43,426 nucleotides of DNA, from the IMG/VR virus record IMGVR_UViG_3300019458_000014, positions 1 to 43,426 of that record; one strand, given 5' to 3'. The stretch comes from a virus. Under the pieces are notes generated by a model that saw only the letters and a program-made list of their open reading frames with translations, was not told the DNA's origin and searched no databases. The stretch's first letter is position 1, and each line of letters begins with the position of its first letter. Positions 1 through 43,426 of the stretch are shown one piece after another. The position numbers and the translations under genes were made by a program.

Positions 1-123
1 GCCGGACCTCGCGGAACACGCCGACCAGTCGCTCAACGTATGCCTCCGGGGTCGGTTCGAGCCCGATCTGTTCGGGCACGCCGTAATCTTGCTTGGGCGT
101 CATCGTGGGCTCCGCTCACCTAC
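1..123. repeat. Terminal direct repeat, copy 1 (identical to 43304..43426): circular-assembly overlap or true DTR
   Basis: Direct comparison: bases 1-123 match 43304-43426 base for base. Confidence 0.95.
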
Positions 124-16118: not shown

Positions 16119-16775
16119 CTAGTCCACGAAGAAGTCGAGGTCCCCGACGGGCAGGCGAAGCGTGTCGCCGACGTTCACGATCTTGTTCGTCACCTTGAAG
16201 AGCACGCCCGTCCCAACCGCTGTGATGTTGACGGCGGCGCCCCCCGAGGTCGTCGCGAAGGTGAACGCATCGACCGTGAGGCCGCCGGAACGGACGAAGT
16301 ACAGCGTTCCCTCGGTGATCCCTGCCGGGAGCGCGACTGCGCCTCGCAGTGGCAGGAACACAACCCGGTCATCGGTCGTCAGGCCGTGGGTCGCCGACGA
16401 GATCGTGTCACCGGCGACGTCGTTGCCGCTGAACGCGCGCCGATGCCCGCCGGCCGGTTGCATGACAGCGGTCGCCATGCAGTTGCCGGCCGAGACGGCA
16501 TCCCAGATCGAGACGCCCCAGACACCGTCGCCAGTGACCGCGGGCATCCCGACGAAGTCCTCGATGTTCGTGTTCTGGGAAGCACCGGCTGCCGCGGCGT
16601 CGAGCTCGAGGGCCTGACGGGCGTAGGAGCCGCCGGCGACTTCGCTGGCACCGGTGTCCCCCGGATAGGCGGTGTGCAGGGCGACGTACACCGTGGTCGG
16701 AGGCGTGAAGGCGGCATTCCGGAAGATGTGGTCGATGACCGTGTTCTCACGGGCATCTGAGAGGCCGAGTGGCAT
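16119..16775 (-). CDS. Tail fibre/collar-like protein, 218 aa
   Basis: N-terminus LSDARENTVIDHIFRN...YVALHTAYPGDTGASEVAGGSYARQA resembles a block common in phage fibre-associated proteins. Confidence 0.5.
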   Translation of the reverse strand: MPLGLSDARENTVIDHIFRNAAFTPPTTVYVALHTAYPGDTGASEVAGGSYARQALELDAAAAGASQNTNIEDFVGMPAVTGDGVWGVSIWDAVSAGNCMATAVMQPAGGHRRAFSGNDVAGDTISSATHGLTTDDRVVFLPLRGAVALPAGITEGTLYFVRSGGLTVDAFTFATTSGGAAVNITAVGTGVLFKVTNKIVNVGDTLRLPVGDLDFFVD

Positions 16776-18399: not shown

Positions 18400-19362
18400 T
18401 CAGTTCGCCCCGATGCTCGAGCTGGTCTCGTACCGGATGAGCGAGTTCTCTCGGATCCGGCCGTAGCCCAGGAGGGCGTACCAGCCGACCGAGATGAATC
18501 GCTGCAGGTCGTCGAACGGCCCGGAGATCACCACGTGCTGCGGGTCACCGACGCCCTCGCCGAGGGCCTGCTTGCCCGTGCAGATCGTCGCGTACACGTC
18601 GACGGTTCCGCCCACGCCCGCGTCGACGAAGATCCGCGCGTTGGGGTTCTCCACCCACCGGACCCCACCGAAGGCCCCGATCTCGCCCATGTACAGGGCG
18701 TTCGGGTCGGTGTTGCCGTGTGGGTAGGACCACGCCTGCTGCCCGCTCTCCGCCTGCAGGTCGTAGGACACGTCCGGGTGACCGAACGCGACGTACAGCA
18801 TCGACCCCGGAGGGGGCGGCGTGTTCTTGCCCGCCAAGAACGCCCGGGCCCGGCGGATGTTGTTGCCGGCGAGCGTGTGGCCAGCCGCCACGGTCACCCG
18901 GGAGGTCGCCGCCCCGCCGTAGAGCACGTTGGTCCCGGCGACCAGCACATCGCGAGCGATGAGGTCGACGGACTCCTCCATGTTCTGGGCGATCTCCTGC
19001 GGGACCGCCAGGTCCAGCGACAGGAACGAGGTCAGGCGGAGCTTCCGCGTGTGCTTGACCGCGTTGCCCTGCTCGACCAGGGTCACGGTCTTTTGGGTGT
19101 CGGCCATGTTGACGGCCGCCGGCTCGGTGCCCTCAGCGAGCGCAGTCGTCGCCGGAGCCAGGGCACTGATGAGCGTGAACGTCACAGCGTTGCCAGGCAT
19201 CGGCTCCGCCCCGCGACCACCGGCCCACTTCACGTCCGCCACACGGCGGTACACGAAGCCGGCTCGGAAGGCCATCAGCGCGGCGGTCTGGAACACCGTC
19301 TTTACGGTGTCGCCACCGATGAACCCGGCACCATCGGTTGTAAGCATCGATGGAGCAGGCAT
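18400..19362 (-). CDS. Major capsid protein (HK97-fold type), 320 aa
   Basis: Size, position after the scaffold, strong SD GGGAGGAGGAG. C-terminal FDDLQRFISVGWYALLGYG-type block is typical of HK97-like capsids. Confidence 0.8.
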   Translation of the reverse strand: MPAPSMLTTDGAGFIGGDTVKTVFQTAALMAFRAGFVYRRVADVKWAGGRGAEPMPGNAVTFTLISALAPATTALAEGTEPAAVNMADTQKTVTLVEQGNAVKHTRKLRLTSFLSLDLAVPQEIAQNMEESVDLIARDVLVAGTNVLYGGAATSRVTVAAGHTLAGNNIRRARAFLAGKNTPPPPGSMLYVAFGHPDVSYDLQAESGQQAWSYPHGNTDPNALYMGEIGAFGGVRWVENPNARIFVDAGVGGTVDVYATICTGKQALGEGVGDPQHVVISGPFDDLQRFISVGWYALLGYGRIRENSLIRYETSSSIGAN

Positions 19363-19398: not shown

Positions 19399-19965
19399 TT
19401 AGGGGGCCTGCTCCTCGCGGGCTTTGGCTAGCTCTTCGGACTGGAGGGCGCCGAGCTTCTCCCAGGCCACGTGCGGCGGGTTCTCGGCGGCGATCCGCGC
19501 GACCTTCTGGTCGTAGGACTCGCCTCCACCCGCCCCTGTCGGCGCGACGCCCGGGTAGGGAGCTGCCCCCCCAGCGGCCATCGCGTCTTGAGCGGCCTGA
19601 GCGGCTGGATCGGGGACCGGCGTCGGCTGCTGGGGCTGAGCGGCCGGCTGGGCCGGAGGCTCACCCGTCGGCGCGGGCGTCGGAGTCGGTGCCGGCTGAG
19701 CCGGTTGCGTGGCCTTGGCCTCCTCAGCGAGCTTGGACGCGAATGTGGCCTGTTTGTCTAGGTCTTGTCCGGCCAGGAGCTCGATCTGCGTCGGCGTAAG
19801 GCCGTGCGTCGCTCCGAGTGCCTGCGCCTGCAGCTGTCGGTTCTTCTCCCGCAGCTCGGCGTTCTCTCGCTTGAGGGCCTCGTCGGGCCCGGGGGGCGGA
19901 GTCCCCGTCGCACCTGCCCCTTGGTCGTACCCGCCTTGCGGGTCGCCCGGTGGGTCGGTCTGCAT
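19399..19965 (-). CDS. Scaffolding protein, 188 aa
   Basis: Coiled-coil (LKRENAELREKNRQLQAQ) plus Pro/Ala/Gln low complexity. Directly upstream of the capsid gene. SD AAGGAGG. Confidence 0.65.
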   Translation of the reverse strand: MQTDPPGDPQGGYDQGAGATGTPPPGPDEALKRENAELREKNRQLQAQALGATHGLTPTQIELLAGQDLDKQATFASKLAEEAKATQPAQPAPTPTPAPTGEPPAQPAAQPQQPTPVPDPAAQAAQDAMAAGGAAPYPGVAPTGAGGGESYDQKVARIAAENPPHVAWEKLGALQSEELAKAREEQAP

Positions 19966-20254
19966 GATGCACCGGCCTCCTTGAGGTCGATCGGCGGGCT
20001 TCCCGCCGGGGCGGTCGTTCCGCCCTCGGCATCAGGCTCGCCGGACGTGTCAAGCAGACCGGGCCCAGAAGAAAGTTCAAGATTCTTTTCTCGCAGGTCA
20101 GACAGGGTCTCGGAGTCTGAATTGAGCCCTTTGTCGGGCGAGACCGCCTGCGAGGCAGGTGTCAAGTTTCCTGCACGGCTCACATCGTCGCAGGTCACAG
20201 GCCTGTCCGAGCCCATATCTGCTGGCCCAGAGGCGATTTCCGCTGCCCCGTTTT

Positions 20255-20299
20255 TAGAATGGTGGGTAGGTCCGGCGTGGGATCGGACCAGAAAGGAGG
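20255..20299 (+). promoter_or_regulatory. -10-like TAGAAT (20255-20260) and strong SD AAAGGAGG (20292-20299) for the reverse-oriented gene
   Basis: Read directly in a locally less GC-rich stretch. The -35 is weak. Confidence 0.4.
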
Positions 20300-20304
20300 T
20301 CGGG

Positions 20305-20655
20305 ATGCCGACCGAGATGGAGCCGGAGATGGAGCGGCTGACGGCGTTGATGAACGCCAGTCTGGCCAGGGTGGTGGCGCGCTGGAACGGCTCCGCCCGG
20401 CAGGCGAGGTGGGACTGCGAGGATGGCTGGGTCACGGCCTACACGACCGAGCGCGTGCGCGGTGGACCACACGATGGCCGGTTCGTGACGATGCTCTACA
20501 AGCCGACAGGCAAGGGCTCGCGATCGGGCAAGGCGAGCGAGTGGACGCGGACCTACCTGCGGGCCTTCTCCACGCGCAAAGCTGCACGCCGGCGCGCTGA
20601 GACCCTGTTCTACCAGCACTCGCCCAGGAGAGCGGCACGACACGGGAGGAGCTAG
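20305..20655 (+). CDS. Reverse-oriented 'moron' protein, 116 aa, unknown function
   Basis: MPTEMEPEMERLTALMNAS... part of ORF 19765..20655. ATG follows AAAGGAGG by 5 nt. Confidence 0.65.
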   Translation: MPTEMEPEMERLTALMNASLARVVARWNGSARQARWDCEDGWVTAYTTERVRGGPHDGRFVTMLYKPTGKGSRSGKASEWTRTYLRAFSTRKAARRRAETLFYQHSPRRAARHGRS

Positions 20656-21956
20656 AGACCCTCCCTCGCCGCGGCGTACTGAGGCGCTCCGGCCTGAGCA
20701 CCCACGAGCCGCTGTCCGACCAGCGCGTTCCGGTTCCGGGTGATCTGATCAAGCGTCCCTCGGAGGTTCCGCGGATCCGCACCCGACTCGAGCACGGCGA
20801 GGTCCGCATCGGAGATGCCAGCGGCCCGGAGCTCCGGCGCGATGAAGTCCTTGATGGCCCGCACCTTCGCGACGAGGTCCGTGAGGTCCACGATCTCGCC
20901 ATGAGCGCCGATCTGACGTGACGCAGCTACCGCCTGACGCGCGTTGATGGCCAGGTCGTCGGTTGCCTGCAGGGTGGCCGCCTCGTAGATGTTGGCGATT
21001 CGCGCGTTGGGCTTCCTGGCCACGTAGTCAGCCCATTCCTTCATGCCCACCGGATCTTGCCCCATCGCCCGGAGCGTGCGGTTGATGGCCTGACGGAACG
21101 GCTCGCGGATCTTCGCCTCACGGATCACGTTGGCCTCGAACGCCCACTCGTCGGGGGACTTGTTGTTGCCGATGAGCGCCCCGATCAGGCGCCGGTCGAC
21201 CCGGATGCCGTACTCGCGAGCGATGTCGGCGTAGCCGTTCGGGCCATAGGCGACCCGGATGTACTCGGCCGGCGTCATCTTGAGCGAACCGTCGGCGTTG
21301 AAGATGCCGGGGAAGGTGCGCTGGAACACCTTGGACTCGTACACCGCCGCCTCGACCTCGTAGACCGACCACTGGCCCCGGATCGCCTGCTCGACGAGCG
21401 GCATGAACTGGTCGGGTGAGAGACCGAGACCTCGCAAGATCCCCCGGAGCTCGCCGCGGGTGAGATCGTCCCCGCCCTTGGCCCAGCCGGGGACCCCACC
21501 TCCACCACCGCCGCCACCACCAGCCGGACCCAGGTTCTTGAGGGCCCCGGCGACCTCGGCCTGCGAGGACCGCGAGAGGGACGCGGCCCGGCCGGCGCCG
21601 ATCAGGTTCCCCCACGAGACCGCGCGGGCCAGCACCCGGTCGTTGGAGGACGAAGCGTCGATCATCTTCCCGTTCCCGATGTAGACGCCCATGTGATCGG
21701 CCTGCCCCTCGCCGAGCCGCCCGAAGTTGAAGAAGAGCAGGTCGCCCGGGCGGAGCTTCTGAGTGTTCGCACCGGGGAACGTCTGGTAGTAGCCGTTGGC
21801 GGTCGACCGCGGGACGTTGACGCCGGCGCGCGAGAGCGCCCACCACACGAGACCCGAGCAGTCGAACTGCCGCGGACCCTCCGAGCCGAACGTGTAGCCC
21901 TTGCCGAGCTGCCGGCGGAGGATCCGGAGGAACCGCGCGACCGAGGCGTCGGCCAT
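20652..21956 (-). CDS. NlpC/P60 cysteine peptidase domain protein with about 280-aa C-terminal domain, 434 aa (virion-associated cell-wall hydrolase candidate)
   Basis: FDCSGLVWWAL (Cys) and DHMGVYIGNGKMIDASS (His) are NlpC/P60 catalytic blocks. Confidence 0.8.
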   Translation of the reverse strand: MADASVARFLRILRRQLGKGYTFGSEGPRQFDCSGLVWWALSRAGVNVPRSTANGYYQTFPGANTQKLRPGDLLFFNFGRLGEGQADHMGVYIGNGKMIDASSSNDRVLARAVSWGNLIGAGRAASLSRSSQAEVAGALKNLGPAGGGGGGGGGVPGWAKGGDDLTRGELRGILRGLGLSPDQFMPLVEQAIRGQWSVYEVEAAVYESKVFQRTFPGIFNADGSLKMTPAEYIRVAYGPNGYADIAREYGIRVDRRLIGALIGNNKSPDEWAFEANVIREAKIREPFRQAINRTLRAMGQDPVGMKEWADYVARKPNARIANIYEAATLQATDDLAINARQAVAASRQIGAHGEIVDLTDLVAKVRAIKDFIAPELRAAGISDADLAVLESGADPRNLRGTLDQITRNRNALVGQRLVGAQAGAPQYAAAREGL

Positions 21957-22349
21957 CTATCTCCGCCCCATCAGTCGCGCGATCGTAGCGGCGACCTCGG
22001 CGCCCTTGTCACGCCAGTACTGCGTGCGTTCGACGCCCTGACTTCCGAGCAGCGAGTCGTAGATCTCGAAGTCCGACAAGTGCTGGACGTTCTTCCACCA
22101 GCCCTTCGGCGGGAGCCGCCCCCAGACCTCGTAGTAGATGCGCTCCGCCCGCGGCTTGTCGGGATCCTCGGGCTGCGACGCTGGGCCCTGCCCGGCCGCA
22201 ATGATGGCGGCGACATCTTCGGGAGTCAGCTCGAACGCAGGCGGCTGCGTCCCGCTCGTGCCCTCGTCCCCCGGCGTACCAGCCGGGGGCATGCCGGTCG
22301 TCCCGACGCCGTGTCCAGTCGGTCCAAGCTCCTCTGGCCTCGTGCTCAC
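21957..22349 (-). CDS. Hypothetical virion-module protein, 130 aa
   Basis: ORF track. GTGA overlap with the giant gene. Shares the TGHGVGTTGM decapeptide with it. Confidence 0.65.
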   Translation of the reverse strand: MSTRPEELGPTGHGVGTTGMPPAGTPGDEGTSGTQPPAFELTPEDVAAIIAAGQGPASQPEDPDKPRAERIYYEVWGRLPPKGWWKNVQHLSDFEIYDSLLGSQGVERTQYWRDKGAEVAATIARLMGRR

Positions 22350-25300
22350 TCAGGCACCCCCCCGAGGCGATACCAGGTGTTCGGGATGAAGATCTCGAGC
22401 GCGGAGTCCGGCCCGTTCTCCTTGTCGAGCCAATCCCACTCGGCGCGGAACACCGGGGAGGCCTCCCTCAGCTGGTTCACGTAGCTCCTGACCGACTCGA
22501 TCATGGTGCGGTAGGCGATCGCCTTGGTCGCGGTGTCCTCGAGCCCGTGCAGGTCCGCCCGCTCCACCACGCCTTGAACCTGCCGCACAGCGTCAAGCAG
22601 TCCGTCCCAGTACGGGCGCGCCTCCTCGGCTCCGATGAACCCCCACGTGTCGTCGCGTCGGTTGAGGACCTGCTCGAAGCTCCACCCCCAGGTGTTGGCG
22701 TGGGCGACCTGCGCGGCGAACACCGGATCCGCCGCGGTCTGCTGGCGTATCCACGAGTCGAGCGCCGCATAGGCCCTCGTCGAGGAGAAGGCGGGGTCGG
22801 TCGCCTCCTGCTCAGCAATCGCGAGCCGGACCTGCTCGTACATGCCCCAGAGCTGCTCGGCGCCGGCCGAGGTCTGCTCCCCGAGGACGGTCTCGTGGTC
22901 GAACCGGCTGTTGAACTGGTAGGAGCGTGCCACGAGCGAGAGCAGGTAGCCCTCCCTCTCGGACGGTGACCAGGTTTCCCACCGAAGGATCATCGGGTTC
23001 TGCTTGGTCGAGAAGGCGTCATAGGACCCGTTCACCCAGGCACGAAGAGCTGCGTAGGCAGCGTTCCGCTCCTCCTCGGGACCCGAGAGGTCAATCGCGG
23101 CGCGAAGCTCCTCCATCTCGGACCACCACGGGTTGATCTTCTCGTCGTAGGCGGCCTCCGGGATCGCGTCGAGCAGCCGGTCACCGACCGTTCTGACGCC
23201 AGCTTTGAGCGCCCGGTCGAAGAACAGGCGATAGGCCTGCTCGCCCTGAGGGAAAGCGAGTCCGAGGATCTTGAGGCCCTTCTCCCAGTCGGCCACGATG
23301 CCCAGGCGCTCCGCCGTCTTGGACTCGAGCGTTCGGAGGTTCGCCTCCGACAGTCGATCACGGGTGAGGTCGAACAGGGGTAGGAAGCCCCGAAGCCACT
23401 GACCGACCTCGGTCTTGGAGAAGAGCTTGTCCTTCGCAAGCTCGCGGGCGATGGCCATGACCCGACTCTCCACCTGTTCGGACGAGTGGGAGTCGAAATC
23501 GGTCCGCCACGCGGGGTACAGGTCGCGGATCTCCTTGAGCGCGGCGTCGTGGTCGTTCTTGAGCTCGTCGTAGCCGGGATCGCCCTCCCCGATCCGCTGC
23601 TGGGCCAGGGCATCCACGAGCGCCCGATACCGCGCGTCCTCGGTGAAGAACGCGTCCCAGCCGGACTGCCGCTCGCCCTCGGCGATGAACTCCTCTGGCG
23701 AGCGAACGTGTCGCAGCCCCGCGGCGATCTGCGAGAAGAAGATGCCCGGGTCGAACTTGCCCTCCTCGTACAGCTCACGCGGGATGATCGCCCACACCCA
23801 TTCCGGGTGAAGCTGGGCGAACTCGCGGGCGCCCTTGGTCGACAGGAGCTCGGCGACCGCGCGGTTGGCCGGGATCGGGACCGGCGATGCGAGGGGATCG
23901 TTCGGATCGTCCGCGTCCCAGAAGGTTCGGGCGATCGTCATCAGCCGGAGATCCTCGTGCGTGGCCATGAATCGAGTGCGGCCCTCGAGCGGGCCGTGCA
24001 GCTCGATCAGCGATCGGTACTCGCGCTCGAGGTCGACCGTCGGGAACTCGACCTTGGGCGCTGCGGGGAACACCCACGCGAAGAACATCCGCGCCGCTGC
24101 GAGCTTCCGGGACTGCCTGCGAGCGAGCTCGGGGTTCGGCTCAAGGCCCATCGCCTCCTGGAGCTGCAGGAAGTGGGTCGCGTTGAAATCAGCCGTATTC
24201 CGCGCGGTGTCCGGGAAGGCCGTCTCGATCCCGTAGCGGAGCCAGGCCGGGAGCAGGGCCTCTGGCTGGACGACATTGATGTCTCCGAACTGGAAGAGCC
24301 ACGACTCCACGCGTGCTTTCAGCCGAGCGTTCACGTTCGAGGAGGCGAGCCAGTTCTGCATGGCCATCTGGAACGGCGGCGCGAGCGAGGGCACCGGGAT
24401 CGGGAACTCTGTGCCGGCGAAACCCCCGAGGTTCACCGGGAAGGCACCTTGGGCGAACAGGTTGAAGCTCGACAGGTTGGCCATGAGCTCCCACCCGCCG
24501 CCGGCACCGGGCTTGAGCCGTCCCCCGGTGAACGCCGCGAGGAGCGGAGCGGCGCCGGCCCACCACGAGAGCGGGATCACGAGCTCCCCGGTCTCCGGGT
24601 CGCGCTTGACGAACCCCGACTGCATGGCGTTCCGCCCGAGGCGGAGCGCGTGCCCGAGGACCTCGGGGCGCTGACGGATGATCCGCGACCACACGAGCGG
24701 GAACTCGAGGAAGGGCTGCACGAATACCAGGCCGAAGCGGGTCATCTCCTCGAACCGACCGGTCCGCGAGAAGTCGAACATGATGCGCCGGACCTGCGAG
24801 ATGCCCTGCTGCCGTGCGGTCTCGCGGAAGCCGGGTAGCCCCCGCTGGATCTGCTCGGCTGACCACCCCATCTCGCGCGCGTTCTCCACGAGCGAGCGGT
24901 AGGTGACGTCGTACCAGTGCTTGAAGTAGGGCTGGCGCGAAAGCGTATTCGTCGGGGTCTGCAGGATCAGCCGGCCCATGATGTCTCGGGCTCGCTTGAA
25001 CGGTCCAACCTGCCCCGTGAAGAACTCGGCCATCTCGGGGCCGTGCACGAAGAGCGGCTTTTCGCCCTGCGGGATCGCTCTCAGCACGGAGATGTCGAGC
25101 TGGTTCACCGCGGCGGCCGAGGCGAGCTCGGAATGCCCGGCCGTGATGTCCTCGGCGTAGGCGGCCGCCCGGCGGACCTCGAACTCGAGCAGGTCGTCGG
25201 TGACCTCCTCGGCACCGTGCAGCAGGCCCTTCGCGTAGGACGGGCCCTCCCCGCGCGTGTCCTTGAGCCAGCGCATGATGTCGTCGACGATGTCCTCGGT

Positions 25301-28300
25301 GTCCCTACCTCGCCCCACGCTCCCCAGGATGCGATTGCCCATCGGATCCGTCCCGTATTGATGAACCAGCACGTGCCACCAGTAATCGTCGAAGTTGTCC
25401 GCGTCACGACCGATCGCGTCCCAGCGGCCTGGCCGGAGCTGCCCGAACACACGGCGAAGAGCGTCGTCGGATTGGGTGAGCACGTGTGAGGCGGCAGCCC
25501 CGGCGTTCACGAGCTGCTCGTTCGGGATGCCCGGCAGCGCGAACGTCATGATGCCCTCGTCGATCCGCCGCTGGGCCTCGAGCGCCTGGGTCGCGTTCTT
25601 GGCCGCGTCGCCTCGCACCCGGAGCTTTCCGGCGTCGATGCCGATCGCCGCGAGCTGACGCGGGTACGTGGTGGCGATCGTGAGCGCAGCCTGGCGCATC
25701 TGGTCGTCCCACGCCCCGCCCGTGAGGATCACGTCGGCGAGGGCGCCACCCCGGTCTTGGTGGTCCGGGTTGAAGCCGATGTCGTCGATGATCCCCCGGT
25801 GGGTCCGGTCGTTCAGGAACAAGATCGCGTCCTCGAGCTCCTGACCGCGCTGACCTGGCGCCTCCGGGAGCTTGAAGCCGACGGGGAGCCGCTGCGGCTC
25901 GTTCATCCCGAGGCGAGCGAGCAGGGGCCCCGACCGCTTGCCGGTCTGGAGCCGGCGCATGAGCCCGACGGTCGCGAGGAACCGGCTCTGCTCCTCGATC
26001 CCGACCACGCGCAGGATGTATGCCGGGCGGAGCACCGCGAGCGGCTTCCACACGGCGAGGAAGGCCTGCGAGATGAGCAGGTCGGCCGCCCGGTCCACAC
26101 CACGGCGGATCGGCAGGATCGCCTTGGCGGAGCGGGCCGAGGCGATCGCCTCCGTGAGTCGTGCGACCTCGGCGTCGTTGTTCGCCGCCTTCGCCGCCTT
26201 GAGCGCGCGTTCGAGCTCCGGGACGTTGCCGAGGTTCCCGAGGGTCACGCGCTGAGCCCGCGTCCACTTGCGGAGTGTTCCCATGATCTCGGCGATCCCG
26301 AGCTCGTAGAGCACCGGGTCAAGCATCTCGTAGGTGTTGTCGAACTGCGACCGCAGGAACGGCTGGAACTCGCTCGTAACGCTCGTGATGCCCGCCTCGG
26401 CATCCCGGATGGCCTGCTCGAGCGCCTCGCGCTCTTCACGACCGGCGCCCCGAAGCGCCCGCCGGAGGCCCCGGATCCTGATGCGCTCGGCCTCGGTGCC
26501 CGCAAAGGCTGCGAAGGTCTGGCGCCTCCCGCCCGTCCCGCCACCATAGATCTTCTGTAGGTGCTGGACGATGCGAGCCGAGAGCGCCGCGTCGATGCCG
26601 TACTTGGCGTTCTTGCGCTCCCGGATGCGGGCGTTCCACTCGCCCACGACCCGCTTGAAGTCGGTCTCTCTGGTCGGGTTGCGTCGGTCGACGGCGGCCG
26701 CGAACTGCGTCTTGGCTCGAGCGATCTCATCCGGCGAGGCGACCTTGGAGCGGATCAGGGCGCGCTCGAAGTCGCGAACGACATCGGCATCTTCGATCTC
26801 GAACACGATCCGCGATCCGTAGCGACGCGGGTTCGTCTGGGGAAGCGCCCGGATGGTCCGGCCGATGTCGGTGCCGGCGAACTCGGTCGTCCGCAGCCAG
26901 TTGTTGAACCGGGCAAGCGAGGCACCGGTCAGGCGCCCGCCGGCGATATGGGGGATCTCGAGCATCCTGACGACCCCCCCGGCGAAATCAGCCGCCGCGT
27001 CGTCGAGCACCTGCAACGCCTGGCCAGCCTCTCTGGTCCGGCGCTGCGCCGCGGCCGTCGCCGAGGCCGGCACGCCCATCGTGGTCGCGAACGTCCGGTG
27101 AAGCGCCTCGGTCCGCTGGACGCGAAGCACACGGTCAAGCTCCAGGATGTCCTCGGCGAAGGTCCCCGCCTTGGGCCGCACCCCCATCGCCGTTGCGAGG
27201 AGACCACGGATCGCGGCGTCGCGCTGCTCACCCGACAGGCCGAGCTTCCGGGCCGTCCGGTTGAACTCCCAGACCCGGCTCGCCGTAGCGGCGTCGATGC
27301 CCGACCCGACACCGAACCATCGCCGGTAGTTGTTGACAGCGCGGTCGAACATCGCTTCCGGCCGCCGCGCACGGTCGGCCTCGCGACGGAGATACTGCGC
27401 GATCGTCACGTCTTTCAGATCGCCTATCCGGCGAGCCGGCTGATCCAAGAACTGGTTGACGCGCGAGATGTACTCAGCACTCGAGGCCGTGCCGACTCGG
27501 CCCGAGATCAGATGTGAGGCCTTGACGCCCGAGCGCCAGCGCAAGCCCCACATGAGCGGGTCGACCTTGCCGCCAAGGATCAGGTCGGCCACGGCCGTCG
27601 CCCACATCGGCACACCTGCGTCCTCGTGGAGCTCCGTGTACACGTTGGTCCGGCCCAAGATGATGTCCCGGGAGTCGCGAAGGGCCTCCGCGATCCTCGG
27701 CAGGTCCGGCTCGTCCGTGAGGTGATACGACGGGTCAACCAGAGCCCGCGTGTGCCGCCCGATGTCCCCGAACGCGTCGACGACCTCCCCGAACACCACC
27801 CGCTCGATCGCCCCGACCCCCCGCGAAAGCAAGTCCAACGTCGTCCCGACCGATCGACCGACGAACGTGTCAGTGAACGGAAGCTCTGCTCGCTCGGCGA
27901 TCTCCTTGCCCGCCTTGATGTAGTCGGACTGGGCGTCCTCGAGGACCGAGAGCCAGTCGCCAGGAGATGCCAACCCTGAGAGCACGGTCTCCGCGAACCG
28001 CTGTTGGGCCTCGATGCCTCGGATCTGCGACGGGTCGACGTAGCTCGTCTGCTGTGCGCTCTCGAGGGCAAGCTGGGCCGGAGATATCTCCTCCGTCCGA
28101 GGCTTCACCGCCTGCAGCTCACCGGTCCCGGCGAACACGGGTCGGGAGATGGTCTCCTCGTGCATCTTCAAGACCTCGCCGAGCCGAGGGTCCAGGGCGG
28201 TCGCGACGTCCCCGAGCGTGCGGACCTCTCGGCCCCGGAGCGCGGCCTGGTGAGCGGCGGCGACCTGCAACTGCGGGGTGAGCCCGGGGAGCCTCGCCGT

Positions 28301-28915
28301 GTACTCGAGGTTCTCTCGAAGGAGCGCCAGCTCCACGTCCGACCGAGCGATGTCGAGCGCCGCACCCATCGCTTGAACGAGCTCGAACCGTTCCCCCCTG
28401 ACCGGTGCGAACGCACGCAGCACCTTGGCGACGCGGGCCGGGTCGACCACCATCATCCCCGTCGTCCCCACCCCATGACCGGTCGCAGCTGACGGCGGCG
28501 GCTCGGCCTCGGTAAGGATCGACCGCAGGACCCGCCGCACCATGCGGGTCTCGTCGATCGGGTAGAACCGACGCGCGGTCTCGAGCGTGATCGGCCCACC
28601 GGTCACCGGGTCGGTGTACAGACCGGTGTGGAGGCTCGCCACGCCTGTTCGACTCGACACGACCGACGCACGGTAGGGCTCGAACAGGAAGGAAGGATCC
28701 AGGTCGAATCGACGAGACAGAAGCTTGGCCGCTCGGGTGAGGTCCTGGGCGTTCCACTGCGTCTGCGCGAGCGCCAGTGTCATCCGACTCGGGAGCGTGC
28801 CGCGCGAGGCTCGTTCGACGTCGGAGATGCGCCGGGGAACGTCCGCCCGATACAGATCGAGCAGCTCGGGGCTCTCGCGCTGTTCCGCGCGCAGGATCGA
28901 TTCGGGGATCGACAC
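22346..28915 (-). CDS. Giant protein, 2189 aa, unknown function (internal virion / ejection protein candidate)
   Basis: Uninterrupted 6.6-kb ORF with consistent GC3 bias, between portal and scaffold. No enzymatic motif recognised by eye. Confidence 0.85.
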   Translation of the reverse strand: MSIPESILRAEQRESPELLDLYRADVPRRISDVERASRGTLPSRMTLALAQTQWNAQDLTRAAKLLSRRFDLDPSFLFEPYRASVVSSRTGVASLHTGLYTDPVTGGPITLETARRFYPIDETRMVRRVLRSILTEAEPPPSAATGHGVGTTGMMVVDPARVAKVLRAFAPVRGERFELVQAMGAALDIARSDVELALLRENLEYTARLPGLTPQLQVAAAHQAALRGREVRTLGDVATALDPRLGEVLKMHEETISRPVFAGTGELQAVKPRTEEISPAQLALESAQQTSYVDPSQIRGIEAQQRFAETVLSGLASPGDWLSVLEDAQSDYIKAGKEIAERAELPFTDTFVGRSVGTTLDLLSRGVGAIERVVFGEVVDAFGDIGRHTRALVDPSYHLTDEPDLPRIAEALRDSRDIILGRTNVYTELHEDAGVPMWATAVADLILGGKVDPLMWGLRWRSGVKASHLISGRVGTASSAEYISRVNQFLDQPARRIGDLKDVTIAQYLRREADRARRPEAMFDRAVNNYRRWFGVGSGIDAATASRVWEFNRTARKLGLSGEQRDAAIRGLLATAMGVRPKAGTFAEDILELDRVLRVQRTEALHRTFATTMGVPASATAAAQRRTREAGQALQVLDDAAADFAGGVVRMLEIPHIAGGRLTGASLARFNNWLRTTEFAGTDIGRTIRALPQTNPRRYGSRIVFEIEDADVVRDFERALIRSKVASPDEIARAKTQFAAAVDRRNPTRETDFKRVVGEWNARIRERKNAKYGIDAALSARIVQHLQKIYGGGTGGRRQTFAAFAGTEAERIRIRGLRRALRGAGREEREALEQAIRDAEAGITSVTSEFQPFLRSQFDNTYEMLDPVLYELGIAEIMGTLRKWTRAQRVTLGNLGNVPELERALKAAKAANNDAEVARLTEAIASARSAKAILPIRRGVDRAADLLISQAFLAVWKPLAVLRPAYILRVVGIEEQSRFLATVGLMRRLQTGKRSGPLLARLGMNEPQRLPVGFKLPEAPGQRGQELEDAILFLNDRTHRGIIDDIGFNPDHQDRGGALADVILTGGAWDDQMRQAALTIATTYPRQLAAIGIDAGKLRVRGDAAKNATQALEAQRRIDEGIMTFALPGIPNEQLVNAGAAASHVLTQSDDALRRVFGQLRPGRWDAIGRDADNFDDYWWHVLVHQYGTDPMGNRILGSVGRGRDTEDIVDDIMRWLKDTRGEGPSYAKGLLHGAEEVTDDLLEFEVRRAAAYAEDITAGHSELASAAAVNQLDISVLRAIPQGEKPLFVHGPEMAEFFTGQVGPFKRARDIMGRLILQTPTNTLSRQPYFKHWYDVTYRSLVENAREMGWSAEQIQRGLPGFRETARQQGISQVRRIMFDFSRTGRFEEMTRFGLVFVQPFLEFPLVWSRIIRQRPEVLGHALRLGRNAMQSGFVKRDPETGELVIPLSWWAGAAPLLAAFTGGRLKPGAGGGWELMANLSSFNLFAQGAFPVNLGGFAGTEFPIPVPSLAPPFQMAMQNWLASSNVNARLKARVESWLFQFGDINVVQPEALLPAWLRYGIETAFPDTARNTADFNATHFLQLQEAMGLEPNPELARRQSRKLAAARMFFAWVFPAAPKVEFPTVDLEREYRSLIELHGPLEGRTRFMATHEDLRLMTIARTFWDADDPNDPLASPVPIPANRAVAELLSTKGAREFAQLHPEWVWAIIPRELYEEGKFDPGIFFSQIAAGLRHVRSPEEFIAEGERQSGWDAFFTEDARYRALVDALAQQRIGEGDPGYDELKNDHDAALKEIRDLYPAWRTDFDSHSSEQVESRVMAIARELAKDKLFSKTEVGQWLRGFLPLFDLTRDRLSEANLRTLESKTAERLGIVADWEKGLKILGLAFPQGEQAYRLFFDRALKAGVRTVGDRLLDAIPEAAYDEKINPWWSEMEELRAAIDLSGPEEERNAAYAALRAWVNGSYDAFSTKQNPMILRWETWSPSEREGYLLSLVARSYQFNSRFDHETVLGEQTSAGAEQLWGMYEQVRLAIAEQEATDPAFSSTRAYAALDSWIRQQTAADPVFAAQVAHANTWGWSFEQVLNRRDDTWGFIGAEEARPYWDGLLDAVRQVQGVVERADLHGLEDTATKAIAYRTMIESVRSYVNQLREASPVFRAEWDWLDKENGPDSALEIFIPNTWYRLGGVPE

Positions 28916-28918
28916 GGC

Positions 28919-29278
28919 CTACCGGCCTTCGCGGATCTTGGCCACGTAGTCCCCGAGGCCCGGGGTTCCCGACGCTTCGAGGTCCTCGGCGACCCGCAAC
29001 ATGAACGTCCGCTCGTCCTCCGAGGACAGGCGCACGTAGTTGGGCCCGGACCCGAACGGGGCACCCGCCGTGATCGGCTCTTCGGGCCTGGACGACGGCG
29101 CCATGATGAACTCGTCGTAACCGTCGTTCAGCTCTTGAACCGGGCCCTCATCAGGGTTGCCGGGTGCCGGGCCCTCGGCGACGTCTGGAACCTGCGCGAG
29201 CCTGGCCAGATCCGCCGATGCCCCGTGAGGAGCGTCTTTGCCGGCTCGGATCGGCGGGGTCTGACCAGGCCTTGGCAC
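28919..29278 (-). CDS. Hypothetical protein, 119 aa
   Basis: ORF track. Abuts its neighbours. Confidence 0.6.
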   Translation of the reverse strand: MPRPGQTPPIRAGKDAPHGASADLARLAQVPDVAEGPAPGNPDEGPVQELNDGYDEFIMAPSSRPEEPITAGAPFGSGPNYVRLSSEDERTFMLRVAEDLEASGTPGLGDYVAKIREGR

Positions 29279-29707
29279 CTACGCCACCCGACGGATGTGC
29301 TCGACGATCATGGACAGCTGCTCGGCGCAGCCGTCGCAGCCGGGCTGGTACCCCTCCGGTGAGTGTCCGACCTCGGCCGACCGATGCACCCCGCAGGCGA
29401 CCGGGGAGTAGGGGATCTCCCGGTAGACGAGCTCCATCGCGCCCTTGGACGGTGCCTTCGGCGTGCGGAACGGCATCGCCGCGTCCTCGGCCTCCGGGTC
29501 CGCCTTCGGCACGTCGTGGGCCGTCACGTGACGAGCGAGGTCGACCTGGCCGTCCTCGTTCCGCTCGGTAGCGGCCTCCACGCGCACCTGCGCGTCGGCG
29601 GCCTTGGCCGACTCGATGGCTTCTTCGAGCTCGGCCTTCTTCATGCTGGGCGAGCCGGCGATCCCGAGCTCCGCCGCCTCGTGCTTCAGCTCCTCGACCG
29701 TTCCCAT
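29279..29707 (-). CDS. HeH/SAP (Rho-N-like) motif protein, 142 aa
   Basis: MGTVEELKHEAAELGIAGSPSMKKAELEEAIE motif. SD GGAAGGAG before ATG 29707. Confidence 0.6.
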   Translation of the reverse strand: MGTVEELKHEAAELGIAGSPSMKKAELEEAIESAKAADAQVRVEAATERNEDGQVDLARHVTAHDVPKADPEAEDAAMPFRTPKAPSKGAMELVYREIPYSPVACGVHRSAEVGHSPEGYQPGCDGCAEQLSMIVEHIRRVA

Positions 29708-29711
29708 GTGG

Positions 29712-31541
29712 TCATCTCCTTCCTGCTCGTAGGAGCTCCTGCGGTGGGAGTGGCACCGCCGGCGACTCCGCTTCCGGCGTTCCGAGCGCCGCGGCTGGGT
29801 TGGGTGCCCCCGGTGGGGCTGGGGGTCCGGGTGATGGACCCACCACCGGGGGCACGGGCGACTGCTCCTGGCGCTGTGCGGCAAGCGTCCGGGTCACAAG
29901 GTCCTTGAGCGCGACGCCCTCATCGAACGCGAGCACCGCCTCACCGATCGCGGACAGACCACCGCTCGCGGCAAGCTGCGCCAAGAACGCATCGCCGAGG
30001 TCCTGGGCGCGGACCCGGGCGAGCTCCTCGGCTGCCTCCTCGACGGTGGGATCCTGCTCGATGGCGGTCTCCCGCGACATCAGCTTGAGCGCGACCTTGT
30101 TCTGCGAGAGCACCGTATGGGTGGGGAGGTCCAGACCGGAGGCCGGCCCATAGGAGACCCAGGTCGACGTGTCGGTGATCTCGTCGGTATCGTAGGTCAT
30201 CGCGAAGCGCCGGCCCCTCGCGATCCCCGAAACCTTCTTCCCGGCGGCCGCGCACCACTTCCGGTCCTGCTCGAGCGCCGCCTCGTTGGCGACCTGCTTC
30301 ATGAGGGCGAAGCGGTCGTGGTAGTCCTGCACGACGTCGGAGAGCTTGCCCTGAGCCCGCGTCAAGAACGCGGCCGTAGCCTTGTTGAGCTGGGTCTCGC
30401 CCTCACGCGCGGTCGGCTTGATCGCACCCTCGCGGCTCTCGGCCTCGAGCTGGGCGAGCACCTGCAGGGCCGCGACCGACGGCGCGTCGGGACCGATCGG
30501 CTTCATGAAGGCGTCAGGGCCCATCGCGAAGTACGTCTGGTTCGGCCCGCGCTCGGTAGGGTTCTTCACCTGCCACACGAGCTTTCCGCCGTAGACCATC
30601 TGAACGAAGTAATCAACGAGCATGTGCCAGTACCGGTTGCGTGTTTGCACCGGGCCCTTCGAGTCGTCAAGGAGCCCCTGTGGCTCCGAGCCCCAGCTCG
30701 GGCGGTAGGCGATCTGCACCGGGCAGACGTGCGTGTCGTTCGCCATCCAGAACAGCAACTCGGTCGAGTCGCGGCCCTCGCCGTCGCGATAGATCGCAGC
30801 CTTGGCGATGTAGTCGCACGAGTACCAGTCGACCACCTTCACCGTGGGCATCTTCATCTCGCGCACGGCCGCGGCCATCGAGGCGATGTCGTACGCGTAG
30901 GTGCTCGCCGCCCAGCGGGAGTCGCCGCGCCCGATCTTCTGGGCGAGCCGAGCATGGGCCTCGGGGAACAGCTTGGCGAGCTTGAGGGCCGGCCACTCCT
31001 CGGCGACCGCCGCGTACTCGGTCGGGCGGTCCACGCCCCACTCCTGTTCGGGCAGCACGCAGAGCGGATCGATCCGGGTGAACACCGGGAATCGTTCGGC
31101 TCCCCGGTAGCCCTTCTGCGGCCAGATCCGCATCGCCGTGTAGCCAGCGGCCGGGAGGTCCATGCCGTGGGCGTTCAGACTGAACCGGAGATGCGACCGC
31201 TCGTCGTAGCCGACCACGATCCGCTCACGACGCTCCGCGGCGTCCTCGTCGGGGTGCCCCTCGGGGAACACGCGAGTCATGGGGTACACCTTGGCGAACA
31301 GGCGCCCGATGTCCTCGATCTGATCGCGGAAGAAGTTGGCGATCAGCGGCAGGTTCACCCGCGACACGTCCGAGCCGTAGACGTCCCACCACCGGTTCTC
31401 CACGAGGGCCCGGATGTCGGCCTGGCGGGACCTGAGGCCGTTCCAGTGAGCTTCGAGGATCCGATACCGCTCACGGACCTCTTCGGCCACGTCGGAGCCG
31501 TTCGGCGGCGCAGCGAGCGGGTAGGTCGCCATCGCGCCCAT
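29712..31541 (-). CDS. Portal protein, 609 aa
   Basis: Size and position immediately downstream of the terminase. No motif proof. Confidence 0.65.
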   Translation of the reverse strand: MGAMATYPLAAPPNGSDVAEEVRERYRILEAHWNGLRSRQADIRALVENRWWDVYGSDVSRVNLPLIANFFRDQIEDIGRLFAKVYPMTRVFPEGHPDEDAAERRERIVVGYDERSHLRFSLNAHGMDLPAAGYTAMRIWPQKGYRGAERFPVFTRIDPLCVLPEQEWGVDRPTEYAAVAEEWPALKLAKLFPEAHARLAQKIGRGDSRWAASTYAYDIASMAAAVREMKMPTVKVVDWYSCDYIAKAAIYRDGEGRDSTELLFWMANDTHVCPVQIAYRPSWGSEPQGLLDDSKGPVQTRNRYWHMLVDYFVQMVYGGKLVWQVKNPTERGPNQTYFAMGPDAFMKPIGPDAPSVAALQVLAQLEAESREGAIKPTAREGETQLNKATAAFLTRAQGKLSDVVQDYHDRFALMKQVANEAALEQDRKWCAAAGKKVSGIARGRRFAMTYDTDEITDTSTWVSYGPASGLDLPTHTVLSQNKVALKLMSRETAIEQDPTVEEAAEELARVRAQDLGDAFLAQLAASGGLSAIGEAVLAFDEGVALKDLVTRTLAAQRQEQSPVPPVVGPSPGPPAPPGAPNPAAALGTPEAESPAVPLPPQELLRAGRR

Positions 31542-43406: not shown

Positions 43407-43426
43407 CGTGGGCTCCGCTCACCTAC
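43304..43426. repeat. Terminal direct repeat, copy 2 (identical to 1..123)
   Basis: Direct comparison. Confidence 0.95.

What the first reader, a model, noticed from the sequence alone, without database searches (positions are those of the whole stretch)
22346..28915. 2189-aa giant gene between portal and scaffold in a genome with no tape measure
- A single uninterrupted 6.6-kb ORF takes up about 15% of the genome. It is translationally coupled to its neighbours.
- It sits after terminase, portal and two small genes, and before an NlpC/P60 hydrolase, the scaffold and the capsid gene.
- No tape-measure-like gene, tail tube or sheath is evident downstream, so the virion is probably short-tailed.
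- I recognise no polymerase, nuclease, protease or transglycosylase motif in the protein. I looked for N4 vRNAP-type and DxDGD motifs and did not find them.
- Inference: an internal virion or ejectosome protein that substitutes for a tape measure or core. Very large genes of unknown function are known in some actinobacterial podophages.
Basis: partly seen in the sequence, partly recalled or inferred. Interest (0 to 1): 0.7.

Follow-up and report, generated by a model that had tools for sequence, protein, structure and literature searches.

The report
Giant orphan protein of actinobacterial podophage
The 6.6-kb gene is real and belongs to a very large, uncharacterised family of giant proteins that sits next to cell-wall-cutting enzymes in short-tailed phages of Actinobacteria; it is most likely carried in the virus particle and released to help the DNA cross the cell envelope, but no experiment has shown this.

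Summary
A 2189-codon ORF lies at 22346-28915 on the minus strand. It has a uniform coding signal and takes 15% of a complete 43.3-kb temperate actinophage genome.

The protein matches nothing in Pfam, NCBIfam or PDB sequences. A confident AlphaFold model of its core has no PDB fold match. It is not an orphan: a profile of the core finds 3395 protein clusters of 1300-3600 aa. These include the 'hypothetical' 1646-aa gp10 of Streptomyces phage Manuel (Beephvirinae, a subfamily in which Abafar and Arkania are podoviruses by EM).

Across distant relatives one cassette recurs: a small phrog_8200 protein, the giant, a 130-290 aa protein, then an NlpC/P60 peptidase with or without a transglycosylase or lysozyme. 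In full phage genomes it lies between portal and scaffold/capsid. Some relatives carry inserted VanY, HExxH peptidase-like or ART-PolyVal domains.

Best reading, from context only (confidence about 0.55): a virion-carried, ejected envelope-penetration protein. It would be analogous to, but not homologous with, T7 gp15/gp16, P22 gp16/gp20, phi24B gp47 and Microbacterium phage Akoni gp31.

The 'tape-measure substitute' part is untested.

The parts
22346..28915 (-). Giant gene, 2189 aa. It has an N-terminal region (about aa 1-300) shared only with close relatives. The family core spans about aa 300-1900; the best conserved part is about aa 940-1640. The C-terminal extension (about aa 1900-2189) is shared with close relatives and L007.
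   Evidence: ORF and translation. Coding signal. phrog_10618 at E 1.4e-7. Homologues and alignments. AlphaFold model of aa 930-1905 with pLDDT 79 and pTM 0.68, mostly helical. No PDB fold match.
28919..29278 (-). 119-aa partner gene directly upstream of the giant (3-nt gap). It belongs to phrog_8200.
   Evidence: phrog_8200 at E 8e-7. The protein in the same position in L017 hits the same PHROG at E 1e-17. Homologues precede the giant in L001, L002, L005, L006 and L008. L017's equivalent small protein has homologues directly before the giant in L009 and L010.
29279..29884 (-). Small gene between portal and the phrog_8200 gene. The listed 201-aa ORF overlaps the portal stop by 173 nt, so the true start is probably further in. 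The L008 homologue is 144 aa. It has a Rho_N/SAP-like helix-hairpin motif.
29712..31541 (-). Portal protein homologue, 609 aa.
   Evidence: BLASTP to the annotated portal of Streptomyces phage Manuel (21%, E 1e-5) and to the equivalent genes of all relatives. The L001 homologue has a weak PF16510 P22_portal hit. The window protein itself has no direct Pfam or PHROG hit.
31545..33755 (-). Large terminase, 736 aa, with an N-terminal helix-turn-helix domain.
   Evidence: phrog_38 at E 6e-27; HTH_29/28/23 at aa 101-149. The same fusion occurs in L001, L002 and L008.
21957..22349 (-). 130-aa gene whose GTG start overlaps the giant's stop codon (GTGA). It is conserved in close relatives. Distant relatives have a 255-290 aa protein in the same slot.
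20652..21956 (-). 434-aa protein with an N-terminal NlpC/P60 peptidoglycan endopeptidase domain.
   Evidence: PF00877 at E 1e-20. PHROG tail and virion hydrolase families. NCBIfam RipC/RipA-type families. Relatives have a homologous or analogous hydrolase in the same slot (NlpC/P60, Phage_lysozyme2, SLT).
19399..19965 (-). Scaffold-like 188-aa gene directly upstream of the capsid gene. The assignment rests on position only.
   Evidence: No family hit. Conserved in position in L001, L005, L006 and L008.
18400..19362 (-). Major capsid protein, 320 aa.
   Evidence: phrog_1357 at E 2e-56; PF13252 at E 1e-14. 35% identical to the Manuel capsid protein (E 7e-51).
10356..13049 (-). 897-aa late protein of unknown family, probably a tail component. 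In L007 its homologue directly follows the giant-like gene and the hydrolase.
   Evidence: No Pfam, PHROG, NCBIfam or PDB hit. Homologues in L001 and L007 (27%, E 1e-51).
1..123 (.). Terminal direct repeat, identical to 43304-43426. It shows that the contig is a complete, circularly closed or terminally redundant genome.

Best explanation
The gene encodes a mostly alpha-helical structural protein of about 240 kDa. It is made with the head-assembly genes of a temperate, short-tailed actinobacterial phage.

**Proposed mechanism (all steps inferred)**
1. The protein is built into the procapsid near the portal, together with its small phrog_8200 partner, the coupled 130-aa protein and the NlpC/P60 peptidase.
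2. It leaves through the tail at infection.
3. With the hydrolase opening the peptidoglycan, it extends or lines the path from the very short tail across the thick actinobacterial envelope to the membrane.
4. In relatives that carry an ART domain, it also brings an effector into the cell.

Functionally this is the role that gp14/gp15/gp16 play in T7 and gp7/gp20/gp16 play in P22.

**What is shown and what is not**
- Shown: the gene is real, conserved, co-transcribed with and tightly spaced to head-module genes, and linked across deep divergence to wall hydrolases.
- Inferred: presence in the virion, internal location, ejection and conduit formation.
For: 1. **Position and expression.** The gene lies inside the morphogenesis operon between portal and scaffold/capsid. 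It has a GTGA overlap with the next gene and a 3-nt gap to the previous one. The same placement is seen in L001, L002, L008, L009, L016 and phage Manuel.
2. **Conserved cassette.** The order small protein (phrog_8200 where scanned: window and L017), giant, 130-290 aa protein, NlpC/P60 (with or without SLT or lysozyme) holds in relatives with only about 20% identity.
3. **Rosetta-stone fusions.** Some family members have cell-wall or effector domains fused into the giant itself. These are VanY plus an HExxH motif at the C-terminus of P0094, HExxH motifs in P0044, P0060 and P0149, and ART-PolyVal in P0051. Two of 21 scanned members have ART-PolyVal, best E 1e-10. Insertions cluster at two profile positions, about 540-556 and about 700-716. 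Iyer et al. 2017 associate ART domains in such architectures with proteins packaged in the head and injected (PMC5512222).
4. **No catalytic signature.** Residues conserved across the family are mostly G, P, W, F and R. There are no Pfam, NCBIfam or PDB hits.
5. **Podovirus context.** Family members sit in Beephvirinae genomes such as Manuel. Two Beephvirinae, Abafar and Arkania, are podoviruses by TEM, with a tail of about 16 nm in Arkania.
6. **Precedent.** Giant proteins in other podophages are virion-associated. Burro gp27 gives an SDS-PAGE band (PMC7302621). phi24B gp47 is abundant in the virion by MS yet absent from the cryo-EM map, and was proposed to be an ejection protein.
Against: - No proteomic, structural or genetic data exist for any member of this family.
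- There is no detectable homology to any known ejection or core protein: T7 gp15/gp16, P22 gp16/gp20, phi24B gp47, GP4 DarB-like, Akoni gp31 and SPP1 gp7 all give hhalign probability of 1.6% or less.
- No transmembrane or strongly hydrophobic segments were found. Only two windows exceed a Kyte-Doolittle score of 1.4.
- In T7 and P22 the ejection genes follow the tail genes, not the portal.
- SEA-PHAGES annotators call the adjacent hydrolases 'minor tail proteins', so an external tail location is equally compatible with the linkage.
- Homologues occur in a circular element of about 15.3 kb with integrases and a primase-helicase but no capsid, portal or terminase gene (L017). That needs an extra assumption, such as a satellite using a helper's capsid.
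Confidence: 0.55

Rival explanations
1. External tail or neck structural protein. The giant forms a tail hub, knob or large appendage on the outside of the virion. It positions the NlpC/P60 and glycosidase enzymes at the tail tip, as gp13 sits on the phi29 tail knob. It is not ejected.
For: - The giant is tightly linked to peptidoglycan hydrolases that annotators label minor tail proteins.
- In L007 the giant-like gene, a hydrolase and the homologue of the window's 897-aa late protein are adjacent, with no capsid gene between them.
- No membrane-active segments were found.
Against: - In every complete genome seen, the gene lies upstream of scaffold and capsid. The usual podophage tail genes, including a GP4 fibre-I-like domain, lie downstream of the capsid gene.
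- Several copies of a 180-240 kDa protein would make a bulky tail. The paper texts describe only a very short tail for Abafar and about 16 nm for Arkania; the micrographs themselves were not seen here.
- ART-PolyVal insertions in relatives point to delivery into the cell.
Confidence: 0.2
2. Packaged cargo or effector protein of the polyvalent, DarB-like kind. It rides in the head and enters the host to counter defences or reprogramme the cell. It has no structural role in the DNA conduit.
For: - ART-PolyVal, DUF7178 and peptidase-like domains are inserted at hot spots in relatives.
- Giant polyvalent proteins exist in podophages GP4 and phi24B; GP4 also supplies the Pfam fibre-I model (PF23140) that a window protein matches.
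- Occurrence in capsid-less mobile elements (L017) matches the finding that polyvalent proteins occur in both phages and other mobile elements.
Against: - The window's own protein, and most family members, have no recognisable effector or LPD domain.
- The conserved part is a helical core of about 1500 aa with structural-type conservation.
- There is no homology to DarB-like GP4 gp or to phi24B gp47.
- The constant linkage to wall hydrolases argues for an entry role.
Confidence: 0.15
3. Head-assembly factor that stays in or leaves the procapsid. Candidates are a MuF/SPP1 gp7-like portal-associated protein, an internal scaffold or a capsid-size determinant. It has no role at entry.
For: - The slot immediately after the portal is where SPP1 gene 7 and MuF-type genes sit (PMC5512222).
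- Capsid-less elements that carry the cassette (L017) could use it to remodel a helper's capsid.
Against: - No PF04233 hit, and hhalign probability 0.09% to SPP1 gp7.
- A separate scaffold-like gene is present.
- This reading does not explain the hydrolase linkage or the VanY and ART fusions.
Confidence: 0.07
4. Non-virion enzyme, for example a cryptic virion or early RNA polymerase, or a replication protein.
For: Size alone (N4 vRNAP is 3500 aa). Helical proteins of new fold can hide active sites.
Against: - No polymerase or nuclease family hit in Pfam, NCBIfam, PHROGs or PDB.
- No conserved acidic motif among 70-121 aligned members. The near-invariant acidic residues are isolated (D1381, E1404).
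- The gene sits in the late structural operon.
Confidence: 0.03

Closest known systems
gp10 of Streptomyces phage Manuel and the equivalent genes of other Beephvirinae (Immanuel3, WRightOn, Abafar and others); PHROG phrog_10618
   Same: True, distant homologues. tblastn with family member P0007 gives E 1e-60 to 1e-64. The window protein against Manuel gp10 gives 24% identity, E 8e-5. The Foldseek BFVD hit to the Manuel protein has E 2e-16. The gene order is the same: portal, small genes, giant, a protein of about 270 aa, peptidase, glycosylase, then scaffold-like gene and capsid. Beephvirinae members Abafar and Arkania are podoviruses by TEM.
   Different: The Beephvirinae proteins are about 1650 aa and lack the window protein's N-terminal (about 300 aa) and C-terminal (about 290 aa) extensions. 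Those phages are virulent, have about 60% GC and carry tRNA arrays. The window phage is temperate and 68% GC. All these proteins are annotated 'hypothetical', so membership gives no function.
T7 internal core / ejectosome proteins gp14, gp15, gp16
   Same: Large, mostly helical virion proteins of a podophage. They work with a peptidoglycan-cleaving activity to build a path across the envelope. Gene and protein notes are; the mechanism is from established knowledge of T7.
   Different: No sequence similarity (hhalign probability 0.1-0.2%), and the PDB Foldseek search gave no hit at E <= 0.001. In T7 the hydrolase domain is inside gp16 and the genes follow the tail genes. Here the hydrolase is a separate neighbouring gene and the cassette follows the portal. 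The host envelope is Gram-positive or actinobacterial.
phi24B gp47 (vb_24B_48, about 2800 aa) and the GP4 DarB-like protein (3224 aa): giant polyvalent proteins of T=9 podophages
   Same: A giant protein in a podophage. phi24B gp47 is abundant in virions by MS, invisible in cryo-EM, and proposed to be packaged and ejected (bioRxiv 10.64898/2026.04.10.717836). One downstream window protein also matches the Pfam model built on GP4 fibre I (PF23140).
   Different: Not homologous (hhalign probability 1.6% and 0.2%). Those proteins contain LPD, MuF-C peptidase or DarB-type domains; the window protein has none. Their genes lie far from the portal.
Microbacterium podophage giant proteins (Akoni gp31, 4487 aa; Burro gp27)
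   Same: Actinobacterial podophages. The giant gene of unknown function abuts the portal gene. Burro gp27 is virion-associated by SDS-PAGE (PMC7302621).
   Different: Not homologous (hhalign probability 0.5%). These proteins are twice as long. The gene lies upstream, not downstream, of the portal. The phages are virulent.
MuF / SPP1 gp7 minor head proteins and MuF-toxin fusions
   Same: Same slot immediately after the portal and before the scaffold. Same tendency of relatives to carry ART-type effector domains.
   Different: No PF04233 hit, and hhalign probability 0.09% to SPP1 gp7. The window protein is seven times longer than SPP1 gp7.

Membership tests
Uncharacterised giant-protein family (phrog_10618 and relatives; Beephvirinae gp10 type) | Sequence homology over the conserved core (about aa 300-1900 of the window protein). 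| tested here: met
   phrog_10618 at E 1.4e-7. Collinear HMM matches to P0006-P0009. A profile of aa 930-1905 finds 3395 clusters at E <= 1e-3 and 1700 at E <= 1e-30. BLASTP to Manuel gp10 gives E 8e-5. Foldseek BFVD to the Manuel protein gives E 2e-16.
Uncharacterised giant-protein family (phrog_10618 and relatives; Beephvirinae gp10 type) | Cassette context: small phrog_8200 protein upstream, a 130-290 aa protein and peptidoglycan hydrolase(s) downstream. | tested here: met
   The window's 119-aa protein hits phrog_8200, the 130-aa gene is coupled downstream, and NlpC/P60 follows. The same order is seen in L001, L002, L008, L011, L018 and L019.
T7-type internal core / ejection proteins (gp15, gp16) and P22 ejection proteins (gp16, gp20) | Sequence or fold homology to gp15, gp16 or P22 gp16/gp20. 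| tested here: not met
   hhalign probabilities 0.1-0.3%. No PDB sequence hit with single-sequence or deep-profile queries. No Foldseek PDB hit at E <= 0.001.
T7-type internal core / ejection proteins (gp15, gp16) and P22 ejection proteins (gp16, gp20) | Location inside the capsid on the portal, and release through the tail at infection. | not testable with these tools
   This needs virion MS, cryo-EM or cryo-ET. Only gene context is available.
Polyvalent proteins (Iyer et al. 2017; DarB-like, LPD-containing) | Two or more effector or enzymatic domains (LPD, ART, MTase, helicase, peptidase and the like) in one polypeptide. | tested here: not met
   The window protein has no Pfam hit at E <= 0.01. 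Only a minority of relatives carry ART-PolyVal, VanY, DUF7178 or HExxH-type inserts.
Polyvalent proteins (Iyer et al. 2017; DarB-like, LPD-containing) | Encoded among virion-packaging or late genes of a portal-terminase phage. | tested here: met
   The gene lies between portal and capsid.
MuF / SPP1 gp7 minor head protein | MuF domain (PF04233). | tested here: not met
   No Pfam hit. hhalign to SPP1 gp7 gives probability 0.09%. Only the gene position matches.
Tape measure protein | TMP family domains, and position between tail-assembly chaperones and distal tail genes of a long-tailed phage. | tested here: not met
   No TMP Pfam or PHROG hit. BFVD hits to TMPs are non-significant (E >= 0.3). 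The gene lies in the head block, and no tube or sheath gene was found.
N4-type virion RNA polymerase | Single-subunit RNAP domain and motifs. | tested here: not met
   No Pfam, NCBIfam, PHROG or PDB match. No conserved acidic motif in alignments of 70-121 sequences.

The most novel reading that the evidence does not exclude
The giant, its phrog_8200 partner and the protein of about 130-290 aa form a portable entry module built on a new protein fold, specific to short-tailed phages of Actinobacteria. It makes the trans-envelope DNA conduit that these phages need, because a 15-nm tail cannot span the wall.

The module is also carried by integrative elements of about 15 kb that have their own integrases and primase-helicase but no capsid, portal or terminase gene (L017, possibly L010). 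These would be satellites that ride in a helper's capsid while supplying their own ejection or pilot protein. That would be a satellite strategy not described so far.
Probability: 0.2. Interest if true: 0.75.

Novelty: new variant of a known kind. Interest (0 to 1): 0.5.

Why it matters
How short-tailed phages get DNA across the thick envelope of Gram-positive and actinobacterial cells is poorly understood. The well-studied ejectosomes (T7, P22, N4-like) all come from Gram-negative hosts.

This gene belongs to a family of thousands of giant proteins with no solved relative. The family has a confidently predicted but unmatched fold, constant linkage to wall hydrolases, and members in cultured, easily grown Streptomyces phages. 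That makes the question directly testable, for example by virion MS, cryo-EM or knockouts of Manuel, Abafar or Arkania gp10.

The insertion hot spots that hold ART, VanY and peptidase-like domains, and the presence of the cassette in small capsid-less integrative elements, hint at a delivery platform and at satellite biology.

If the protein turns out to be an ordinary tail component, the result is still a useful annotation for a family that is currently labelled 'hypothetical' everywhere.

Tried and rejected
**Family and structure searches on the giant that found nothing**
- Pfam, NCBIfam and PDB-sequence searches of the giant: nothing.
- PDB profile searches with the 5-sequence and 70-sequence alignments: only chance hits to designed helical repeats and LXR.
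- tblastn of the giant against 50,697 phage genomes: no hit at 1e-5. Beephvirinae were reached only through the intermediate P0007. Two other family members, P0034 and P0051, gave nothing.
- Genome-contig scan (one genome per species): no confirmed relative.

**Structure prediction**
- The first AlphaFold run used 8 sequences and was unusable (pLDDT 53).
- The second run used 61 sequences and was good (pLDDT 79). Foldseek against PDB gave no hit below E 2. Foldseek against BFVD gave only unannotated family members.

**Homology tests, all negative**
- phi24B gp47/48, T7 gp15 and gp16, SPP1 gp7, Akoni gp31, P22 gp16 and gp20, and the GP4 DarB-like protein. These compare a profile with a single sequence, so very remote homology cannot be excluded.

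**Other checks**
- PDB sequence searches of the capsid, portal and 897-aa proteins found nothing, so a GP4/phi24B-type virion could not be confirmed beyond the fibre-I domain.
- Hydropathy scan: no transmembrane-like helices.
- Assembly chimera was rejected because of collinear homologues on independent contigs and uniform GC3.
- The member with the stronger ART-PolyVal match (E 1e-10) was not identified. Only P0051 was located.
- Literature searches found no virion proteome for any phage carrying this family.


Full report
**1. The observation**

The window holds one uninterrupted ORF at 22346..28915 on the minus strand. It has a GTG start, a TGA stop and 2189 codons. GC content by codon position is 0.69/0.48/0.88. 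The third-position value stays between 0.81 and 0.92 in every 200-codon block, as expected for a real gene in a 68% GC genome.

From base composition, a stop-free run of this length anywhere in the window has a probability of about 8e-16. The longest ORFs in non-coding frames are about 630 aa.

The window begins and ends with the same 123 bases. It is therefore a complete genome of 43,303 bp, and the gene takes 15.2% of it.

The downstream gene's GTG overlaps the giant's TGA as GTGA. Upstream, the previous gene's TAG is separated from the giant's GTG by three bases.

An assembly chimera is excluded. A different metagenome contig encodes a collinear protein that is 61% identical over 99% of the length. 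Four others are 41-43% identical in the full-length alignment.

**2. The genome around it**

Along the minus strand the order is as follows.

| Gene | Evidence |
|---|---|
| Large terminase with an N-terminal HTH domain | phrog_38, E 6e-27 |
| 609-aa portal homologue | BLASTP to the annotated portal of Streptomyces phage Manuel, E 1e-5; weak P22_portal hit in the L001 homologue |
| Small gene with a Rho_N-like motif | |
| 119-aa phrog_8200 protein | |
| The giant | see above |
| 434-aa NlpC/P60 protein | PF00877, E 1e-20 |
| Scaffold-like gene | position only |
| Capsid gene | phrog_1357, E 2e-56; PF13252 |

The genes after the capsid gene show no tape-measure, tube or sheath signature. One of them starts with the fibre-I domain of podophage GP4 (PF23140, E 1e-27).

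A WhiB gene and two tyrosine recombinases mark a temperate actinobacterial phage. One close relative of the giant sits in a 526-kb bacterial contig, so that copy is probably a prophage.

**3. The giant is not an orphan**

The word-indexed protein search found only four close relatives and a handful of distant ones of 1400-1770 aa.

I then scored a profile of the conserved core (aa 930-1905) against every one of 1.84 billion cluster representatives. It found 3395 clusters at E <= 1e-3 and 1700 at E <= 1e-30. The listed best 150 are 630-3600 aa long, and full-length members are mostly 1300-3600 aa.

Most members are about 1400 aa. A second class, which includes the window protein, is 2000-2300 aa. 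The window class adds about 300 N-terminal and about 290 C-terminal residues to the shared core.

Through the intermediate P0007, the family reaches cultured phages. There are 29 Streptomyces phage records, and those inspected (Manuel, Abafar, and Percastrophe as Arkania's nearest relative) belong to the Beephvirinae. The 1646-aa gp10 of phage Manuel is annotated 'hypothetical protein'. Abafar and Arkania of this subfamily are podoviruses by electron microscopy, with a tail of about 16 nm in Arkania (PMC11536984; PMC13587820).

The window phage shares portal, capsid (35% identity), hydrolase and giant homologues with Manuel.

**4. Conserved context**

In every full phage genome examined, the giant lies after the portal and before the scaffold-like and capsid genes. 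This covers the window, L001, L002, L008, L009, L016 and Manuel.

Across members that share only about 20% identity, a cassette recurs:
- a small protein of 100-140 aa (phrog_8200 in the window at E 8e-7 and in L017 at E 1e-17);
- the giant;
- a 130-290 aa protein;
- an NlpC/P60 peptidase, often followed by a lysozyme or SLT-type glycosidase. In L002 a Phage_lysozyme2 protein takes this slot instead.

This linkage to peptidoglycan hydrolases is the strongest functional clue.

**5. The protein itself**

No Pfam, NCBIfam or PDB-sequence match exists for the single sequence or for profiles of 5 or 70 sequences.

With a 61-sequence alignment, AlphaFold gave a usable model of aa 930-1905 (mean pLDDT 79, pTM 0.68). 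It is almost entirely helical, with one small beta region.

Foldseek found no PDB structure below E = 2. In BFVD it found only unannotated family members, including the Manuel protein. At the level these tools can see, the fold is unmatched.

The residues conserved across 70-121 members are mainly glycine, proline, tryptophan, phenylalanine and arginine. Only isolated acidic residues are conserved. That pattern suits a structural protein rather than an enzyme. No transmembrane-like segments were seen.

**6. What relatives add**

The insertions cluster at two profile positions, about 540-556 and about 700-716. Others have extra termini.

The additions include:
- an ART-PolyVal ADP-ribosyltransferase domain (P0051 aa 693-873, E 9e-7; two of 21 scanned members, best E 1e-10);
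- a VanY D-Ala-D-Ala carboxypeptidase with a nearby HExxH motif (P0094);
- HExxH or HExxHxxGxxH motifs (P0044, P0060, P0149);
- DUF7178.

A wall-cleaving domain and a cytoplasm-acting effector domain fused into the same scaffold suggest that the protein leaves the virion and reaches both the wall and the cell interior. Iyer et al. 2017 describe exactly such additions for proteins packaged in phage heads and injected (PMC5512222). The window protein itself carries none of these inserts.

**7. Best explanation and its rivals**

I think the giant is most likely a virion-carried protein that is released at infection. Together with its small partners and the NlpC/P60 enzyme, it would open and line the path for DNA across the actinobacterial envelope. 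This is the job done by gp14/15/16 in T7 and by gp7/20/16 in P22. I put this at about 0.55.

Every step from 'late structural-operon gene linked to hydrolases' to 'internal, ejected conduit' is inference.

| Rival | Confidence |
|---|---|
| External tail hub or appendage that carries the hydrolases | 0.2 |
| Packaged effector or cargo protein with no conduit role | 0.15 |
| Head-assembly factor of the MuF/gp7 or size-determining kind | 0.07 |
| Cryptic enzyme such as a virion RNA polymerase | 0.03 |

**8. Comparison with what is known**

I tested direct homology and found none to the following: phi24B gp47/48, the GP4 DarB-like protein, T7 gp15 and gp16, P22 gp16 and gp20, SPP1 gp7, and the 4487-aa Akoni gp31. 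The hhalign probability was 1.6% or less in each case.

The resemblance to these proteins is therefore functional and contextual only. phi24B gp47 is abundant in virions by MS but invisible in cryo-EM, and its authors propose an ejection role. Burro gp27 is virion-associated by SDS-PAGE, and in Akoni the equivalent giant gene abuts the portal gene.

The only family to which the window protein demonstrably belongs is the uncharacterised one typified by Beephvirinae gp10 and phrog_10618.

**9. An observation that does not fit neatly**

L017 comes from an Acidimicrobiales MAG. It is a 15,459-bp contig with a 141-bp terminal repeat, so it is a closed circle of about 15.3 kb.

It carries a 261-aa protein, a phrog_8200 protein and a 1400-aa giant. 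These are homologous to the three cassette proteins of phage-like L009. It also carries WhiB, two integrases, a repressor/cro-like pair and a primase-helicase. It has no terminase, portal or capsid gene by Pfam, PHROG or BLAST.

L010 is similar, although that contig is incomplete.

Either these are satellites that bring their own copy of the module to a helper's capsid, or the module has a role that does not need a capsid. I could not survey how common this is, because context look-ups were limited to a few proteins.

**10. Verdict**

The gene is a new, extended variant of a very large and entirely uncharacterised family. That family probably represents the entry machinery of actinobacterial podophages. 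It is moderately interesting, mainly because the family is huge, has no structural or functional precedent, and can be tested at once in cultured Streptomyces phages.

Noticed in passing
L017 1-15459 (GCA_035525365.1 DATLEK010000015.1); also L010: A closed circular element of about 15.3 kb (141-bp terminal repeat). It carries a 1400-aa giant homologue with its phrog_8200 and 261-aa partners, WhiB, two tyrosine integrases, an HTH regulator pair and a primase-helicase. It has no terminase, portal or capsid gene. It may be a satellite or another kind of integrative element. L010 shows integrase, an HTH_17 protein and the giant cassette with no portal in the 8 kb upstream.
   Followed up: partly
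window 31545-33755 (-): The large terminase is 736 aa, with an N-terminal helix-turn-helix domain (HTH_23/28/29, aa 101-149). The same fusion is present in L001, L002 and L008. No separate small terminase was recognised, so this may be a TerS-like DNA-recognition domain fused to TerL.
   Followed up: partly
window 1-123 and 43304-43426: Identical 123-bp direct repeats at the two ends of the window. The contig is a complete circularly closed or terminally redundant genome of 43,303 bp.
   Followed up: yes
window 14193-14873 (-): A 226-aa late gene built of three tandem 180-nt (60-aa) repeats, 66-80% identical at the DNA level. It is probably a repeat-containing fibre or decoration protein.
   Followed up: no
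window 34794-35615 (-): A 273-aa protein with RTX calcium-binding nonapeptide repeats (PF00353, E 2e-8), just upstream of the terminase region. This is unusual in an actinophage.
   Followed up: no
window 16119-16775 (-): A 218-aa protein whose first 106 residues match the N-terminal domain of fibre I (gp80) of Ralstonia podophage GP4 (PF23140, E 1e-27; phrog_240). This links the virion to GP4-type podophage architecture, although the capsid, portal and 897-aa proteins gave no PDB sequence hits.
   Followed up: partly
window 7572-8471 (+), 40882-41436 (+), 41881-42462 (-): Two tyrosine recombinase genes (299 aa full-length; 184 aa with the catalytic domain only) and a 193-aa WhiB-domain protein. 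These indicate a temperate phage of an actinobacterial host.
   Followed up: partly
Family members P0038, P0053, P0063, P0046, P0041, P0044, P0033 (not in the window): Insertions of 420-1460 aa at one profile position (about 525-556) of the giant family. Several contain DUF7178 (PF23802). A second hot spot at about 700-716 holds the ART-PolyVal domain of P0051. The scaffold seems to tolerate and collect cargo domains at fixed sites.
   Followed up: partly
L007 13-8202 (IMGVR_UViG_3300025936_000203): A 1162-aa protein homologous only to the C-terminal 800 residues of the giant (21% identity). It is followed directly by a 364-aa gene, an NlpC/P60-like gene and a homologue of the window's 897-aa late protein. 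This suggests that the giant, the hydrolase and the 897-aa protein work together.
   Followed up: no
window 29279-29884 (-) versus 29712-31541 (-): The 201-aa ORF as listed overlaps the end of the portal gene by 173 nt. The homologue in L008 is 144 aa, so the true start is probably internal. Similarly, the ORFs at 20432-20902 and 19758-20435 overlap their neighbours and are doubtful genes.
   Followed up: partly
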